In this document: positions 42,183 to 50,761 of the stretch, piece after piece
Layout: the number at the start of each line of letters is the position of its first letter
How positions within the stretch are numbered: the first letter of the stretch is position 1
NCBI GenBank assembly: GCA_977017645.1
Contig: OZ360225.1
Coordinates: forward strand, 167,524,001 to 167,588,000
Direction: 5' to 3'
DNA: 64,000 nt
Source: Torpedo marmorata
Taxonomy: Eukaryota
Notes under the pieces: model-generated
What the model was told of the DNA's origin: nothing
Database searches by the model: none
Seen by the model: only the letters and a program-made list of their open reading frames with translations
Program-made: the position numbers and the translations under genes

Positions 42183-45176
42183 TTGTGATGTTTCTTTTAT
42201 TGTAATAAAGAAACTTAGGTTCTTTTAAAACAACTATACTTTATTAGCTTTATCATGACCGCGTGGAGGCATCCATCTTGAATCCAACAGAGCTGAACAA
42301 ACTAGTCTCTGACTCCCTCTAGTGGTCGGGAGGATCACTAGCACTCTATCACGACATCCCCTTTCCTTGAGATGTTTAATCTAACAACATGACACATTAA
42401 TACAGTATTCATTTCAATTTAAAGTTCAACACAAAAGTAAACACAACATCAGCTGCACAAACTTTTTAAGTATGCAGTTCATTTTCTTTTATAGATTCAG
42501 TCTCTGAGGTGCTTTGATAACACATGTGGATCTTCTTAACACAGGTGCTTGTGTCGGCTCTGCTGGTCCACTATTGTCTAGCACTGGTGGTGTTTCCTCT
42601 TTTGCTGTGCAGGCTGGATCTTCTGCATTTGTCTGTTCCTGCAGTGTCTCTTGCGTTTTCAGCAGGCTCTTTCGATTCCTTCTCAGTATTTGACCATCCT
42701 CTGTTCTGACAGTGTAGGATCTTGGATTTACTTCCTCAAGAACAGTAGCCTTTTTGTCCCAAGTGTTGGAATCTCTGAGTCTCACTGTGTCATGTTGTGC
42801 CAGTGGCCCTAAGCTTCTTGCTGACTTGTCATAGTTTGCTTTTTGTCTCCATTGCAGACAATTTTGTTTCCGTTCGACATCTTCAACATCGCTGTTTTTA
42901 TTTGGGTCTGCAGAGTAGGGAAGTGTGGTGCGTAGTCTACGTCCCATCAGAAGCTCAGCAGGTGACATGCCATGTTCAAGTGGTGAAGCACTGTAACTCA
43001 ATAGAGCTAGATCTAGTCTAGTGCTTTCTTGAGCAACTGTTTAACTATGTGAACTCCTTTCTCTGCTTTACTGTTTGACTGTGGATGCAGAGGACTTGAA
43101 GTCACATGTCAAAAATCATACTCTTCTGCAAAGTTCTGGAATTCTCTACACCTGTAGCATGGTCCATTGTCACTGTAGACAATTTGAGGAATTCCATGTC
43201 TTGCAAAGATCACACAAGCAGCAGACATGTTAGGAAGCAGCGCAATCTCCGGATAGTTTGATAGATAGTCAATAACCAGCAGGTAATTCTTTCCATCCAT
43301 ATGGAACAGATCAGCCCCAACTTTCTGCCATGGTTTTGCTGGTAAGTCAGTTATTATCATGGGTTCCTCTGCCTGCTTTGCGTGATGTTTCAAACAGGTC
43401 TCACAGCTGGAAACCATCCTGTCAATGTCAGCATTTATCCCTGGCCAATAAACAGCAGTTCTGGCCCTCCTCTTGCATTTTTCCATTCCAAGGTGCCCCT
43501 CATGCACCCTTTTCAGCATCTCTTGTCGCAGTGATTGAGGAATGATAATTCTGCTCTGTCTGAGTAGAAGCCCATTGACAACACTCAGCTCAGCTCTGAT
43601 GTTGTAGTATGGCTGACATTCACCTCTAGGCCATCCTTCATTCAGATTCTTGATGACTTTCTGTAGAATTGTGTCCTTTTCTGTTTCAGCTGCGATCTGC
43701 TTGGATTTCATGTCAGATACGGGAAGAGACTCAGTGATCAGGTTCATGTGGTGATTCACATCTGTCTCTGTGGAACTCTCATTGTGTGCTTCACTCTGCA
43801 TCATTGCCCTGGATAACGCATCAGCTAACACAATAGGTTCCCTGGTGTGGACACCCTCTTGACTAGGCTCAAGTTTTCACATGCTTTGTCACCAAGCAGT
43901 GATTCATGTCCATCTGGGACTACTGCGAACCTGAGGTGGTGCTCTTTATCTTTAACTTTCATCTTGAGTTTACATGTACCTCTTGTGTCCATGCTCTGTC
44001 CATTGTAGGCTTTGAGCTGTACCGGATTAGCATGGATGTATGGCTTTATCTTCATTGCCCTGATGTCGCGCTCAAAGATCAAATTGACTTTTGCCCTGTG
44101 TCCAGCTTGAAAGCAATATTTGTTCCATTTGTATGCAATGACACAGTCCACTTATCCTGCTCGACTCTGTTCACACTCGGCTGTTCAGTGTCTGTTGGTT
44201 TATAATATTCCTGCACTACCATGCCAACGAAAAGTGTATCACTGAGGGCAGTTTCTTCTATAGTGTGTACAGTGTGCACGCTTTCACTTCTGTTTCGTTT
44301 CCCTTTGGAACAACATTGCTTTGCTTAGTGATTCTGCCCTTTGCACTTATTACAGACTTTTCCATAGGCGGGGCATTGTTTTGGTACATGTTGAGTGCCA
44401 CATTGTTTGTAATTGAATGTCTCTCCATCTTTTTCTTGTTTCCTATATCTCGTTTTTTGTTTGTGTGTGGACAAACATTGTGGCAATGGCTATGCCTTAG
44501 TTTTCATTGGCTTTTGCACTCTCACCAAACTTTTTCACATGCTGCAGAGCTAATTCACTGGCGTGGCATATCTTCACAGCTCCAGCTAAGGTAAGCTCTG
44601 TCTCTCGCAGCAACCTCTCTCTCACTTTCTTATCAATAATCCCGAACACAATTTGATCACTGATCATTGAATCTTGCAGCGGTCTGAAATTGCATGTTCT
44701 TGCTTTTAATTTCAAGTCTGTTAAAAAAGTGTCAAAGCTCTCTCCCTGCAGCTGCGTGCGCGAGCAAAACACGTACCTCTTGAACGTTTCATTTTTCTTT
44801 GGTGAACAGTGTTCATCAAACATCTCGATAACCTTGTCGAACTTGCCCTGGTCTTCTGCCTCGGCAAAATCGAATGGATTGAAAACCTCTAGTGCTTGAG
44901 GTCCCACCACGGTAAGTAGCAGTGCAATCTTCCATGCATCAGGTTCATTATCGACTACAATGCCTTGCAGGTACAGCATGAATCTTTGTTTAAACAACCT
45001 CCACTCGTGGTTGACATTTCTAGTCTAATTTACAGCATCAGGAGCCTTCACACTTTCCATATCTCTGCTGCTATATCGACCGATTCTCACTCCTTGTACC
45101 ATGTGATGTTTCTTTTATTGTAATAAAGAAACTTGGGTTCTTTTAAAACAACTATACTTTATTAGCTTTATCATGA

Positions 45177-46027
45177 ACAGTCAGGAGAGGAGAGAGAGAG
45201 GAGAGGAGAAGAGAAGACAGAGGAGAAAAGAGTCGGGGGCAAGGCAAGGTAAGAAAGCTTTTTTAAAAGTCTCTTACCGGGGCCTGTGGCAAGGGTCCGA
45301 AGAGGAGTCGGCGTCGGAGGCGGCCATTGGTCGGGCGGGCCTACAGGAGAGCGTGTCGGGAAGGTAAGGTCTTCTTAAGGGCTCTTACCGAGGGCAGGGT
45401 CTAACAGTCAGGAGAGGAGAGAGAGAGGAGAGGAGAAGAGAAGACAGAGGAGAAAAGAGTCGGGGGCAAGGCAAGGTAAGAAAGCTTTTTTTAAAGTCTC
45501 TTACCGGGGCCTGCGGCAAGGGTCCGAAGAGGAGTCGGCGTCGGAGGCGGCCATTGGTCGGGCGGGCCTACAGGAGAGCGTGTCGGGAAGGTAAGGTCTT
45601 CTTAAGGGCTCTTACCGAGGGCAGGGTCTAACAGTCAGGAGAGGAGAGAGAGAGGAGAGGAGAAGAGAAGACAGAGGAGAAAAGAGTCGGGGGCAAGGTA
45701 AGAAAGCTTTTTTAAAAGTCTCTTACCGGGGCCTGCGGCAAGGGTCCGAAGAGGAGTCGGCGTCGGAGGCGGCCATTGGTCGGGCGGGCCTACAGGAGAG
45801 CGTGTCGGGAAGGTAAGGTCTTCTTAAGGGCTCTTACCGAGGGCAGGGTCTAACAGTCGGGAGAGGAGAGAGAGAGGAGAGGAGGAGAGAAGACAGAGGA
45901 GAAAAGAGTCGGGGGCAAGGTAAGAAAGCTTTTTTAAAAGTCTCTTACCGGGGCCTGCGGCAAGGGTCCGAAGAGGAGTCGGCGTCGGAGGCGGCCATTG
46001 GTCGGGCGGGCCTACAGGAGAGCGTGT
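45177..46027 (+). repeat. Tandem ~225-bp monomers (3.8 copies) in the CR1 5' UTR
   Basis: Units start at 45177, 45404, 45631 and 45853 and are near-identical. Each has a GA-rich tract, CCATTGG and GGGCGGG. Confidence 0.95.
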
Positions 46028-46217
46028 AGGGGTTAATTGGTCAAAGGCCAATAAATAAGAGGGACAGGGAGCGGCCCAGCGAGTGAGTGGCACAGCGAAG
46101 GAGTGGGACCTCTAGGCTTTGGCTCATCAGGCTTCGGCGAGCACAGGCTGAGGACGCGTCACTGAACACTAAGGTAAGAATCTTATTAGTCTTATTACGA
46201 TTTCATTGGGGTCCAGG

Positions 46218-47153
46218 ATGAGTGTTAGGGCTGTGTGTTGTTGGGAGTGCCAGATGTGGGAGGTCCTGGAGTCTTCCAGACTCCCTGATGTCCATATCTG
46301 CACGAGGTGTGTAGAGCTGCAGAATCTTAGGAACCGTGTTAGGGAACTGGAGCTGCAGCTCGATGACCTCAGGCTGGTTAGGGAAACAGAGGAGGTCATA
46401 GATAGGAGTTACAGCCAGGTGGTCACGCCAGGGCCACGGGAGGAGGAAAGGTGGGTAGCAGTTAGAAGAGGGGCAGTAAAACGTAAGGAGCCAGAGAGGA
46501 GCCCTATGACTGTAACCCTCAGCAATAAGTACGCCTCTTTGGGTACTGTTGAGGAGGACAGCATGGTTGGGGGGAGCAACAGTGGCTGTGCCTCTGGCAC
46601 GGGGTCAGCCCCTGTGGCTCAGAAGGGTAGGGAAAGGAAGAGGAGGGCAATAGTTGTAGGGGACTCCATAGTCAAGAGGACAGATAGGGGATTCTGTGGA
46701 CGCAGCAAGGAGAACCGGATGGTGGTTTGCCTCCCTGGTGCCAGGGTCCGGGATGTTGCTGCTCGTGTCCCGGATATCCTAAAGGGGGAGGGACAGGAGC
46801 CAGAGGTCGTGGTACATGTAGGTACCAATGACATAGGGAGGAATAGAGAAGAGGTCCTAAAAAGGGAGTACAGGGAGTTAGGTAGGGAGTTAAAAAGAAG
46901 GACCGCAAAGGGGGTAATCTCTGGATTACTCCCTGTGCCACGTGACAGTGAGAGTAGAAATAGAATGAGGTGGAGGATTAACACGTGGCTGAAGGGGTGG
47001 AGTAAGGGGCAGGGTTTCAAGTTTCTGGATCACTGGGACCTTTTTTGGGGGAGATGTGACCTGTACAGTAAGGACGGGTTACACTTGAATCCCAGGGGGA
47101 CCAGAATCCTGGCAGGGGTATTTGCTAGGGCTACTCAGGAGCCTTTAAACTAG
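46218..47153 (+). CDS. CR1 ORF1: Cys-rich finger, coiled coil and SGNH esterase-like domain
   Basis: CxxC...CxxC, LRNRVRELELQLDDL, then SGNH blocks VVGDSIV, LPGARV, HVGTND and DGLH. Uninterrupted. Confidence 0.92.
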   Translation: MSVRAVCCWECQMWEVLESSRLPDVHICTRCVELQNLRNRVRELELQLDDLRLVRETEEVIDRSYSQVVTPGPREEERWVAVRRGAVKRKEPERSPMTVTLSNKYASLGTVEEDSMVGGSNSGCASGTGSAPVAQKGRERKRRAIVVGDSIVKRTDRGFCGRSKENRMVVCLPGARVRDVAARVPDILKGEGQEPEVVVHVGTNDIGRNREEVLKREYRELGRELKRRTAKGVISGLLPVPRDSESRNRMRWRINTWLKGWSKGQGFKFLDHWDLFWGRCDLYSKDGLHLNPRGTRILAGVFARATQEPLN

Positions 47154-50110
47154 AAAGGTTGGGGGGAGGGAGCAAAATAGTACCGAGCAGTAAGGAGAAG
47201 GTTAGAACAGGGAATGTTTGTAGTCAGAGTTTGAATATGGATGGGCAGGTGATAGAGAAGGTTACTAAAGATAAGGGCAAACAGAGATTAAGAAGTGGGA
47301 AATCTCTGAAATTCATATATTTTAATGCCAGGAGTATTGTAAAAAAGGTGGATGAGCTGAAGGTGTGGATTGATACTTGGAAGTATGAGGTGGTAGCCAT
47401 CAGTGAGACATGGTTGCAGGAGGGATGTGATTGGCAGCTGAATATCCCTGGGTTTCGTTGCTTTAGGTGTGATAGAGTCGGAGGAGCAAGAGGAGGTGGT
47501 GTTGCGTTGCTTGTCAGGGAGAATATTACAGCGGTGCTTAGGCAGGATAGATTAGTGGGCTCGTCCACGGAGGCTATTTGGGTAGAACTGAGAAGTGGAA
47601 AAGGAGAAGTTACACTTGTAGGGGTGTATTATAGACCACCCGGAGGGGACAGAGACCTAGAGGAGCAAATCTGTAGGGAGATAGTGGATATTTGTGATAA
47701 GCACAGGGTTGTGATTGTGGGAGATTTTAATTTTCCACATATAGATTGGGAAACACATTCTGTGAAAGGGCTGGATGGGTTGGAGTTTGTGAAATGTGTG
47801 CAGGATAGTTTTTTACAACAGTATGTAGAGGTACCGACCAGAGAAGGAGCAGTGTTAGATCTACTGTTGGCAAATGAGATAGGTCAAGTGACGGAGGTTT
47901 GTGTTGGCGAGCACTTCGGGTCCAGTGATCATAATGCCATCAGCTTCAATGTCATTATGGAAAGAGATAAGTCAGGGCCAAGGTTTGAGGTTTTTGATTG
48001 GGGAAAAGCTAGATTTGAGGAGATGAGAAGGGACTTACAGGGTGTGCATTGGGACAATTTGTTTTATGGGCAGGATGTAGTAGAGAGATGGAAGTCTTTT
48101 AAAGATCAGATTTTGAGAGTGCAAAAGCTTTATGTTCCTGTTAGGTTAAAAGGAGGGGCAAAAGGTTTGAGAGAGCCGTGGTTTTCGAGGAATATTGGAA
48201 ACTTGGTTTGAAAAAAAAGGGAGGCGTACATTAAGTATAAGAAGCATGGAAAGGAGATGTTTGAAAAATACATTGAATGTAAAAAGAATCTTAAGAGAGG
48301 AATTAGGAAAGCTAAAAGAAGGTATGAAGAGACTATAACAAGCAGGGTGAAAATTAATCCAAAAGGTTTTTACAAATACGTTAATGGTAAAAGGAAAGCG
48401 AGGGACAAAATTGGTCCCTTAGAGAATCAGAGCGGAAAACTGTGTGTGGAGCCTAGAGAAATGGGGGAGATATTGAACAGTTTCTTTTCTTCGGTATTCA
48501 CCAAGGAGAAGGATATTGAGATATGCCAGATAAAAAAAGCAAATTGGATAAATATGGAGAATATAAGGATTACGAAAGATGTAGTGTTAGGGCTTTTGAG
48601 GCATATAAAGGTGGATAAGTCTCCGGGACCCGACGGGATCTTCCCCAGGACCTTGAGAGAAGTAAGCGAAGAAATAGCAGAGGCTCTGACGGTGATTTTC
48701 CAAATGTCATTAGAGATGGGGATAGTGCCGGAGGATTGGCGATTTGCGCATGTGGTTCCGTTATTTAAAAATGGTTCAAGGAGGAAGCCTGGCAATTATC
48801 GGCCTGTAAGTTTGACGTCTGTGGTAGGTAAATTAATGGAGAAAGTTCTCAGAGATAGTACTTACAAATATCTGGATAGACAGGGTCTGATCAGGAACTC
48901 TCAACACGGATTTGTGAGCGGAAGGTCCTGTTTGACCAATCTGATTGAATTTTTTGAAGAGGTGACTAGGAATGTGGATGAGGGTAGCGCGGTGGATGTT
49001 GTCTATATGGACTTCAGTAAGGCCTTCGATAAGGTTCCGCATGGAAGGTTAGTTAGGAAGGTGCAGTCTTTAGGTATAAATTCTGAGATAGTCAAATGGA
49101 TTGAACATTGGCTGGAAGGGAGAGGCCAGAGAGTGGTAGTGGATAATTGTCTGTCAGGTTGGAGGCAGGTGACCAGAGGTGTGCCTCAGGGATCTGTATT
49201 GGGCCCGTTGTTGTTTGTTATATATATCAATGATCTAGATGATGGGGTGGTAAACTGGATTAGTAAATATGCAGATGATACTAAGATAGGTGGAATAGTG
49301 GATAATGAAGAAGGTTTTCAAGGATTGCAGAGGGATTTGGGCTGCTTAGAAAAGTGGGCTGAAAAATGGCAGATGGAGTTTAATGCTGATAAGTGTGAGC
49401 TGCTTCATTTTGGTAGGAAGAATCAGAACAGGACATATGTAGTAAATGGGAGAGCATTGATGAATACAGAAGAGCAGAAAGATTTAGGAATAACGGTGCA
49501 TCGTTCCCTGAAGGTGGAAACTCATGTGAATAGGGTGGTGAAGAAGGCTTTTAGTATGCTGGCCTTCATCAATCATTGCATAGAATATAGGAGTTGGGAA
49601 GTGATGTTGAGATTATATAAGGCTTTGGTGCGGCCTAATTTAGAGTTCTGTGTGCAGTTCTGGTCGCCAAATTATAGGAAGGATATCAACAAGGTGGAGA
49701 GAGTGCAGAGAAGGTTTACCAGAATGTTGCCTGGGTTTAAGAATCTAGAGTACAAGGAGAGATTGAGCAGATTAGGTCTTTATTCTTTGGAGCGTAGAAG
49801 GTTGAGAGGGGATTTGATAGAGGTATTTAAAATTATGAAGGGGATAGACAGAGTGGATGTGGATAGACTATTTCCATTAAGAACAGGAGAGATTGAAACA
49901 AGAGGACATGAGCTAAGAATTAAGGGGCAGAGGTTTAGAGGTAACATGAGGGGGAACTTCTTTACTCAGAGAGTGGTAGCGGTGTGGAATGAGCTTCCGG
50001 GAGAAGTAGTGGCGGCAGAGTCAATTTTATTATTTAAGAAAAAGTTGGACAAGTATATGGATGAGAAGGAAGTGGAGGGTTATGGGCAGGGTGCAGGTAG
50101 GTGGGACTAG
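47129..50110 (+). pseudogene. CR1 ORF2 (APE endonuclease plus RT) with a single in-frame TGA at 48209-48211
   Basis: ORFs 47159-48211 (NARS, SETW, YRPP, GDFN, SDH) and 48257-50110 (KSPGPD, DFSKAFD, PQGSVLGP, YADD) are in the same frame. Confidence 0.93.
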
Positions 50111-50761
50111 ATAGGAATGTTTGGTTCGGTGCGGACTGGAAGGGCCTAATGGCCTGTTTCCGTGCTGTAATTTTTATATTTATATGGTTTATATGACCGT
50201 GTGGAGGCATCCATCTTGAATCCAACAGAGCTGCAACAAACTAGTCTCCGACTCCCTCTAGTGGTTGGGAGGATCTCTAGCACTCTATCACTACAGTCTC
50301 TGCCTCCCCTAGTGGTCGGGAGGATCACTAGCACTATCACTACAGTATGGAGGGCTATGGACTCGGTGCAGATCAGTGTGACTAGGCAAAAAAAATGGTT
50401 CGGCACGGACTAGACGGGCCGATGAGGTCTGTTTCTGTGCTGTAATGTTCTGTGGTTCTATTGTCATTTTTTTCATGCAGGGAAGAACTTGATGAGTGTG
50501 GCTTGACACTCACAATTTCTCTGATAGACATAAAAGCTTAAATTTATCTTTCACAGATCTGGTGATATGAAAATGCCAAGGTTCTACAATTATGAATTTT
50601 TAAGTGATGTCATCTGTTTTAAATTAAAACCACTTTTAATTAGAAACATTAAAGTAAACTAATAATTAAAACAAACTGATTGTTTTAAGATCTTCAAAAC
50701 CATTCCTTTCTTTTCAAGTGAATAGGCTTGTGGATTCTGCATCAGGTCTAAACTGGAACAG

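What the first reader, a model, noticed from the sequence alone, without database searches (positions are those of the whole stretch)
47126..47240. Canonical -1 ribosomal frameshift signal joins CR1 ORF1 to ORF2
Seen: ORF1 ends CCT TTA AAC TAG (47142-47153), so the heptamer T_TTA_AAC (47144-47150) is correctly phased immediately before the stop. The ORF2 frame is the -1 frame and is open from 47129 (22-nt overlap). After slippage it reads AAA CTA GAA AGG TTG GGG... into the endonuclease. A G-rich tract GGTTGGGGGGAGGG begins 6 nt downstream. Established: U_UUA_AAC is the coronavirus-type slippery site, while LINE ORF2s are usually explained by reinitiation. Inference: this CR1 may make a Gag-Pol-like ORF1-ORF2 fusion (esterase-EN-RT), possibly stimulated by the adjacent stop or a G-quadruplex. 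An in-frame ATG at 47237 is the alternative route.
Basis: partly seen in the sequence, partly recalled or inferred. Interest (0 to 1): 0.8.

Follow-up and report, generated by a model that had tools for sequence, protein, structure and literature searches.

The report
Conserved frameshift switch in CR1 retrotransposons
A widespread vertebrate jumping gene (a CR1 LINE) ends its first gene with a virus-type slippery sequence, a stop and a run of five G's at a fixed distance, kept from rays to birds, and it likely makes its reverse transcriptase when ribosomes slip back one base and fuse the two proteins, as retroviruses do.

Summary
Confirmed and extended. Window 45176-50195 is a young CR1 LINE (esterase ORF1; endonuclease-RT ORF2 in the -1 frame, one premature stop in this copy). 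ORF1 ends T_TTA_AAC-TAG (47144-47153). Across 13 lineages (8 from this genome, 5 animal-type metagenome contigs) the last codons are TTA 13/13, AAC 13/13, stop 13/13, while Leu, Asp, His and Asn codons just upstream vary freely; the final C is synonymous in both frames, so the constraint is on the RNA. Linkers of 110-221 nt keep the -1 phase. Four of 12 lineages have no in-frame ATG before the endonuclease; in the others its place varies. New here: a G run at +11 to +15 from the heptamer in 12-13 of 13 lineages, independent of amino acid. No conserved hairpin, pseudoknot partner or universal G-quadruplex was found. Best reading: programmed -1 frameshift giving a ~1,297-aa ORF1-ORF2 fusion (0.83); no translation was measured. 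Rival: reinitiation, possible in this family at ATG 47237. Not found in searchable literature; three classic CR1 papers could not be read; Dictyostelium TRE5-A/TRE3-A is a stated precedent.

The parts
45176..46027 (+). 5' UTR tandem array, about 222-bp unit, 3.8 copies
   Evidence: TRF; sisters are 5'-truncated at various points inside it
46218..47153 (+). ORF1, 311 aa: N-terminal Cys motif, coiled-coil-like stretch, SGNH/GDSL esterase; ends L-N-stop
   Evidence: PF13472 E 5e-14; best relatives 66-73% identical in rays and skates
47144..47150 (+). Slippery heptamer T_TTA_AAC (last 7 coding bases of ORF1)
   Evidence: T/G-TTA-AAC in 13 of 13 lineages
47151..47153 (+). ORF1 stop, directly 3' of the heptamer
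   Evidence: 13 of 13 lineages (TAG 10, TAA 3); TGA in L075
47161..47166 (+). G run at +11 to +15/16 from the heptamer end; candidate 3' stimulator
   Evidence: G at +11,+12,+14 in 13/13 and +13,+15 in 12/13 lineages; same spacing in decayed metagenome copies
47150..47323 (+). -1-frame linker (58 codons) from the shift site to the first conserved Asn of the endonuclease
47237..47239 (+). In-frame ATG (A at -3, G at +4); alternative ORF2 start in this family only
   Evidence: 30 of 30 near-identical loci; absent or elsewhere in other lineages
47150..50110 (+). ORF2 frame: APE endonuclease + reverse transcriptase; premature TGA at 48209-48211 in this copy
   Evidence: PF03372, PF14529, PF00078; 45-48% identical over ~620 aa to bird CR1-type ORF2
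50111..50195 (+). Short 3' UTR ending in a short AT-rich repeat tail (no poly-A)

Best explanation
The junction of this CR1 LINE holds a conserved slippery heptamer, adjacent stop and fixed-distance G run, and likely works as a programmed -1 ribosomal frameshift that would give mostly ORF1p and a small share of a predicted 1,297-aa esterase-linker-endonuclease-RT fusion. Shown: sequence, phase, conservation at synonymous positions, absence of a usable ATG in several lineages. Inferred: ribosomes with tRNA-Leu and tRNA-Asn on UUA AAC re-pair on UUU AAA, read CUA next and so bypass the stop; the pause is likely supplied by the stop codon and by the G5 run 10 nt downstream (at a spacing closer to protein-assisted frameshifts than to pseudoknots), acting through a bound protein, a weak or intermolecular quadruplex, or the ribosome's entry channel. 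The shift would set the ORF1p:RT ratio and tether RT to the ORF1p particle, as in Gag-Pol.
For: (1), column-wise commonest codon per lineage, 13 lineages: Leu(-2) TTA 13/13, Asn(-1) AAC 13/13, third base of codon -3 T 12/13 (G in one, G_TTA_AAC) although that residue is P, C, A, G, D, Y or S. Controls 20-26 codons upstream are saturated: Leu columns use 6 and 5 codons (TTA 3 of 24), Asp/His/Asn split 20:14 C:T. The element prefers AAT 42:13. AAC/AAT is Asn in frame 0 and CTA/TTA is Leu in frame -1, so the fixed C is not a protein constraint. (2) The cassette moves with the ORF1 end when the tail is 26, 27, 31 or 32 residues long. (3) Linker lengths by majority column or single copy: 110, 125, 140, 143, 155, 161, 173, 188 (three families), 221, all 2 mod 3; the -1 frame has no commonest-codon stop in the linker in 12 of 12, while frames 0 and +1 hold 0-7 and 2-11. 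(4) First in-frame ATG lies 54 codons (F140, 9 copies), 94 codons (F161, 7 copies) and 14 codons (L063) past the endonuclease Asn, none before it in L061; in L169 only on the codon just before it; elsewhere at codons 10, 16, 23, 27, 29, 32, 39; ATG-less lineages are scattered on the tree. No ATG in the overlap in 12 of 12. (5) Proteins: 82 of 88 ORF1 relatives ending 20-32 aa after DGxH end L-N (sharks, rays, bony fish, frogs, turtles, lizards); among 92 more distant ones 43 end LN, 9 GN, 3 KN, the endings expected from U_UUA_AAC, G_GGA_AAC and A_AAA_AAC, which PMC5009743 lists among the shiftiest heptamers. (6) Contigs of four public runs show no listed variant at 47143-47155 while 47141, 47142 and 47156 vary (40 rows shown, 7 hidden), and linker indels upstream of the ATG net +6, +6, +63 nt. 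(7) L062 (bird-type) and L065 are open for 1,006 and 973 codons from the heptamer.
Against: No measurement of translation; no RNA, ribosome-profiling or proteomics data (one search listed no run on record as RNA). No classical stimulator: local folds are weak (z -2.4 to +1.3), no Rfam match, no conserved long-range partner. This family and 7 of 12 lineages do have an upstream in-frame ATG, here in good context, with no variant listed there in related-species contigs. L1 ORF2 is thought to start independently of its AUG (PMC5009743), so lack of ATG alone proves little. Lineages share ancestry, and 7 of the 8 own-genome ones are 59-83% alike; old copies are often out of phase (49 of 84 in phase; 3 of 15 in the oldest family). 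The combined chance of open linkers (1e-11) is inflated because in-phase copies were picked. 33 of 92 distant ORF1s do not end in N. GN/KN endings are protein-level only; their DNA was not obtained.
Confidence: 0.83

Rival explanations
1. Termination-reinitiation (L1/SART1 style): ribosomes stop at the ORF1 stop and restart in the -1 frame at ATG 47237 in this family, or at a non-AUG codon near the stop in ATG-less families; heptamer and G run would be the reinitiation signal, and ORF2p would be free.
For: Stop strictly conserved; ATG 47237 in 30 of 30 sisters with A-3/G+4 and no out-of-frame ATG ahead of it in the sisters; AUG-independent initiation favoured for L1 (PMC5009743) and UAAUG coupling for SART1 (PMC3894237).
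Against: Does not explain why the conserved signal is exactly an X_XXY_YYZ heptamer in the shifting phase, nor the G_UUA_AAC variant or the GN/KN endings; no stop-start overlap in any lineage; the codon over the stop is CTA (13/13), a poor initiator (own knowledge); frame-0 ATGs precede the first in-frame ATG in F155 and F221; the linker upstream of the ATG stays open and in phase. It may still act as a second, minor route in ATG-bearing families.
Confidence: 0.1
2. The motif is an RNA or DNA cis-element of another kind (protein-binding, packaging, promoter or cleavage site) that happens to sit at the ORF1 end.
For: Nucleotide-level conservation is shown, function is not; GTTTAAAC is a palindrome in four families; the G run has no identified partner.
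Against: The base 5' of the heptamer is C, G or A, so the palindrome is not kept; the motif is locked to codon phase and to the stop, and moves with the ORF1 end; leaves ATG-less ORF2s without a route to expression.
Confidence: 0.05
3. Splicing: the AG of the ORF1 stop is a 3' splice site and a spliced RNA (donor-like GGTAAG just before ORF1) expresses ORF2.
For: TAG in 10 of 13 lineages; GGTAAG motifs in the 5' region.
Against: TAA in 3 of 13 and TGA in L075; no pyrimidine tract; ATG-less families would still lack a start; no joint ending at the stop among those shown (contigs, RNA status guessed, many rows hidden).
Confidence: 0.02

Closest known systems
Coronavirus/arterivirus ORF1a/1b and retroviral Gag-Pol -1 frameshifting
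   Same: U_UUA_AAC heptamer in the same phase (one lineage has the G_UUA form that PMC5009743 gives for equine arteritis virus); structural gene upstream, polymerase in -1 frame.
   Different: Non-LTR retrotransposon; no pseudoknot or stem-loop at 5-9 nt; stop directly after the heptamer; conserved unstructured G5 at 10 nt; no protease in the element, so the fusion would stay whole.
Dictyostelium TRE5-A / TRE3-A
   Same: APE-type LINEs stated to require a -1 frameshift for ORF2 (PMC5911963, figure-legend passage; primary papers not read).
   Different: Other LINE clade, other ORF1; whether they use this heptamer or were tested by assay was not checked.
Pea enation mosaic umbravirus shift site; arterivirus and cardiovirus protein-assisted frameshifts
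   Same: Stop codon near the shift site needed for shifting (PEMV); spacers of 11-14 nt (PMC5009743 passages).
   Different: No stimulating protein identified here; motif is G-rich.
L1 and SART1 ORF2 translation
   Same: Bicistronic LINE RNA with a poorly translated ORF2.
   Different: Those have an inter-ORF spacer or UAAUG overlap and give free ORF2p; here ORFs overlap at a slippery site and ORF2 often lacks an ATG.

Membership tests
Canonical CR1 LINE (ORF1+) | ORF2 with APE endonuclease and RT | tested here: met
   PF03372/PF14529 and PF00078
Canonical CR1 LINE (ORF1+) | Esterase-type ORF1 (PMC13343379) | tested here: met
   PF13472
Canonical CR1 LINE (ORF1+) | RT groups with CR1 rather than L2/Rex1 | tested here: inconclusive
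   45-48% identity to bird-type ORF2 (L062, stork gene models) against 31% to another esterase LINE; no tree with named reference elements; the label CR1 for the bird sequences is my recall
Canonical CR1 LINE (ORF1+) | Short 3' UTR with short-repeat tail, no poly-A, frequent 5' truncation | tested here: met
   (feature partly recalled; poly-A said to be unique to Zenon)
Programmed -1 ribosomal frameshift | X_XXY_YYZ heptamer in correct phase within an ORF overlap | tested here: met
Programmed -1 ribosomal frameshift | Conservation beyond protein constraint | tested here: met
Programmed -1 ribosomal frameshift | Downstream ORF open from the shift site, no obligate own start | tested here: met
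   ATG present in this family, absent in 4 of 12 lineages
Programmed -1 ribosomal frameshift | Stem-loop or pseudoknot stimulator 5-9 nt downstream (classical type) | tested here: not met
   a conserved G5 at +11..+15 instead; pseudoknots were checked only by looking for complementary C runs and duplexes
Programmed -1 ribosomal frameshift | Measured frameshift efficiency or transframe product | not testable with these tools
   no reporter, ribosome-profiling or proteomics data
G-quadruplex stimulator | Four G tracts able to fold in every lineage | tested here: not met
   quadruplex in minimum-energy fold 5 of 12, two-tier pattern 7 of 12, three-tier 0 of 12

The most novel reading that the evidence does not exclude
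ORF1-bearing CR1 elements, the dominant retrotransposons of birds, reptiles and cartilaginous fish, all make their reverse transcriptase as an esterase-endonuclease-RT fusion through an ancient -1 frameshift driven by a new kind of stimulator (adjacent stop plus an unstructured G5 at a fixed 10-nt spacer), and the wider CR1/L2 group switches between U_UUA_AAC, G_GGA_AAC, A_AAA_AAC and in-frame stop readthrough, the same menu retroviruses use for Gag-Pol.
Probability: 0.45. Interest if true: 0.9.

Novelty: new variant of a known kind. Interest (0 to 1): 0.76.

Why it matters
How LINEs translate ORF2 is described as an open question (PMC3894237; PMC5009743). This gives a precise, cheap-to-test answer for a major vertebrate clade: a 25-nt cassette conserved over hundreds of millions of years. 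If right, CR1 ORF2 annotations start in the wrong place (the protein begins with ORF1), CR1 particles resemble Gag/Gag-Pol assemblies with a lipid-binding esterase fused to RT, and the G5 element would be a compact natural frameshift stimulator of a type not described in the review passages read.

Tried and rejected
Near-identical sisters (30 of 40 loci taken) are uninformative on conservation, so divergent families were pulled with five foreign ORF1 proteins (30, 30, 30, 30 and 20 loci of 122-147 matches each). Hairpin CCTTT/AAAGG around the site in this family: rejected, 47156 differs in related species. Conserved stem-loop, universal G-quadruplex, C-run partner: not found. Long-range pairing with the 3' end (lead from e1-9772336): best 40-nt duplexes in 17 sequences fall at scattered places, often outside the element. 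Rfam: 0 matches. Longer homologs (22 hits): P0121 and P0037 read ORF1 into the linker in one frame, but are single gene models, probably copies with an indel; not counted as evidence. Residue -3 avoiding E/Q/K/M/W (2 of 87 against 39 and 38 at -4/-5) is weak, since -6, -7 and -9 are also low. DNA for GN/KN-ending relatives: none found in viral contigs, prokaryote genomes or this genome. Expression: no RNA holder listed. Of the 54 metagenome loci, many are bacterial esterases or end before the junction; 12 reach it: 9 exact T/G-TTAAAC, 3 one or two bases off in broken copies; G5 at +11 in 9 of 11 that extend that far. Literature: ten searches found no report of a frameshift in CR1; the 2026 vertebrate-wide CR1 survey (PMC13343379; outline and passages seen) has 0 occurrences of 'frameshift', 'overlap', 'start codon' or 'translat' in its main text, supplements not seen. 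Kapitonov and Jurka 2003, Kajikawa 1997, the SART1 paper and Alisch 2006 were not held and Haas 1997 was not looked up; any of them may already note the overlap or suggest a frameshift.
Full report
Observation. The window carries a LINE at about 45176-50195 (+): a 222-bp tandem 5' array, a 311-aa ORF1 with an SGNH esterase, and an ORF2 with APE endonuclease and RT. ORF1's nearest named relatives are from rays and skates (66-73%), and the 6.2-Gb genome holds many near-identical copies (620 candidates, 40 scored), so this is a young family, most likely in a cartilaginous fish. This copy has a premature TGA at 48209; 22 of 30 near-identical loci have CGA there and 11 of 30 have no stop over about 600 codons from the heptamer.

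Is the heptamer conserved? At protein level, 82 of 88 ORF1 relatives that end 20-32 residues after the catalytic DGxH end in L-N (120 of 245 hits listed; 95 had the motif), across sharks, rays, bony fish, frogs, turtles and lizards. For DNA, I searched this genome with five foreign ORF1 proteins and metagenomes with an ORF1 alignment, and anchored junctions on the DGxH motif with a profile that excluded the last 13 residues. The 141 distinct own-genome loci from the first five searches fell into 7 families of 9-30 copies plus small clusters, 55-83% alike between main families; 86 of 111 older copies have TTTAAAC at the fixed position without allowing for indels. Taking the commonest codon per column in 8 own-genome lineages and the natural sequence of 5 metagenome contigs, the last codons are TTA 13/13, AAC 13/13 and a stop 13/13, and codon -3 ends in T in 12/13 although seven amino acids occur there; the exception gives G_TTA_AAC. 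Invariant residues 20-26 codons upstream use every synonymous option, so these lineages are diverged enough for the test, and the element otherwise prefers AAT to AAC 42:13. The last C is silent in both frames. The lineages are related, so simple probabilities (1e-11 and 1e-3) overstate the case, but the contrast with the controls does not depend on them. Pairwise amino-acid identity of 12 lineages over the ORF1 end and endonuclease start is 24-77%, median 40%.

Phase and start codons. Linkers from the stop to the first conserved endonuclease Asn are unalignable between distant lineages and range from 110 to 221 nt, yet all are 2 mod 3 by majority column (six older families) or in single copies. 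Individual old copies are often broken: 49 of 84 are in phase, only 3 of 15 in the oldest family, whose majority-column length is still 188. The -1 frame closes 1-19 codons upstream of the heptamer with no ATG in the overlap (12 of 12), so ORF2 cannot start upstream. In two multi-copy families and two metagenome contigs there is no in-frame ATG before the endonuclease; in the two families the first lies 54 and 94 codons past the Asn, beyond the ETW motif (that these residues are catalytic is recalled from L1 endonuclease). Where an ATG exists it sits anywhere from codon 10 to 39. In this family ATG 47237 is in all 30 loci and in good context, so reinitiation there cannot be excluded as a second route. 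Contigs from public runs of other organisms keep 47143-47155 without listed variants and carry in-frame linker indels upstream of the ATG (contigs only, some rows hidden).

What could stimulate the shift? Two features are fixed: the stop directly after the heptamer (TAG, TAA, and TGA in L075) and a G run at +11 to +15. In the -1 frame this means codon 6 ends in G in 13/13 though it encodes L, G, R, Q or K, and codon 7 is GGG in 12/13, never another Gly codon (GGG is 42 of 111 Gly codons in the element). The seven bases between stop and run vary but their number does not, except for a 3-nt shift in L065. No conserved hairpin was found (z -2.4 to +1.3), a quadruplex is predicted in 5 of 12 lineages, no complementary C run is conserved, no long-range partner recurs and Rfam has no match. 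PMC5009743 (passages) lists U_UUA_AAC among the shiftiest heptamers, reports that a nearby stop is needed in pea enation mosaic virus, gives 5-9 nt spacers for structures and 11-14 nt for arterivirus and cardiovirus, and says natural quadruplex stimulators were not known in 2016. I infer that the stop and the G run together pause the ribosome; how the G run acts is open.

Mechanism. Most likely a programmed -1 shift: most ribosomes end ORF1p at L-N; some re-pair one base back and continue L-E-R-L-G-G-G into a flexible linker, endonuclease and RT, 1,297 aa in all. Confidence 0.83. Reinitiation 0.10, other cis-element 0.05, splicing 0.02.

Wider picture. Among 92 more distant ORF1s, 59 end in Asn: LN 43, GN 9, KN 3, SN 2 and two others; GN and KN match G_GGA_AAC and A_AAA_AAC, but their DNA could not be fetched, and 33 end otherwise. 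A more distant esterase LINE family has ORF1 and ORF2 in one frame separated by a single TAG in 4 of 5 loci, suggesting readthrough.

Known or new. -1 frameshifting is well known, and a review states that Dictyostelium TRE5-A and TRE3-A need it for ORF2 (PMC5911963, passage). For vertebrate CR1, ten searches found no report; the frameshift review's passage on non-LTR elements names HeT-A, TART and mammalian LINEs only (first 300,000 of 449,034 characters held), a review on non-LTR protein biogenesis (PMC3894237, parts 1-2 of 3 read) lists reinitiation and IRES options, and the 2026 CR1 survey does not use the word. The classic CR1 papers could not be read. Earlier AI notes of this scan reached the same reading in other genomes; they are not independent proof. 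Verdict: real, new variant of a known kind, interest 0.76.

Noticed in passing
L076:1589-1591, L083:3334-3336, L091:965-967, L096:718-720 (L078 has a 2-nt deletion there): A more distant esterase-ORF1 LINE family (31% RT identity) in which ORF1 and ORF2 are in the same frame, separated by one TAG followed by G and three predicted hairpins (-20 to -22 kcal/mol in 72 nt): candidate stop-codon readthrough. The only Met lies four residues before the endonuclease Asn.
   Followed up: partly
Proteins P0188, P0189, P0199, P0200, P0202, P0206, P0245, P0260, P0262 (GN end); P0212, P0257, P0276 (KN end): Distant ORF1s end G-N-stop or K-N-stop, as expected from G_GGA_AAC and A_AAA_AAC heptamers; DNA not obtained.
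   Followed up: partly
window 45176-46027: 5' UTR is a tandem array of a 222-bp unit (3.8 copies) with several GGTAAG splice-donor-like motifs; another lies just upstream of the ORF1 ATG (about 46176).
   Followed up: no
window 44497-45024 (-): 175-aa open frame directly upstream of the LINE that looks like a fragment of an LTR-retrotransposon gag (by recall; no Pfam match).
   Followed up: partly
window 1291-63135, about 15 places: Many older CR1-like and more distant RT fragments on both strands, 25-75% identical to this ORF2; none reaches ORF1.
   Followed up: no
P0137, P0139, P0141 (stork gene models); P0121, P0037 (stingray gene models): Host gene models have absorbed CR1 sequence and begin the ORF2-frame part at F-K-L, the heptamer itself; P0121 and P0037 run ORF1 into the linker in one frame.
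   Followed up: partly
P0021: A cartilaginous-fish-type CR1 ORF1 (55% identical) is filed under Pseudomonas aeruginosa in NCBI, probably host contamination.
   Followed up: no
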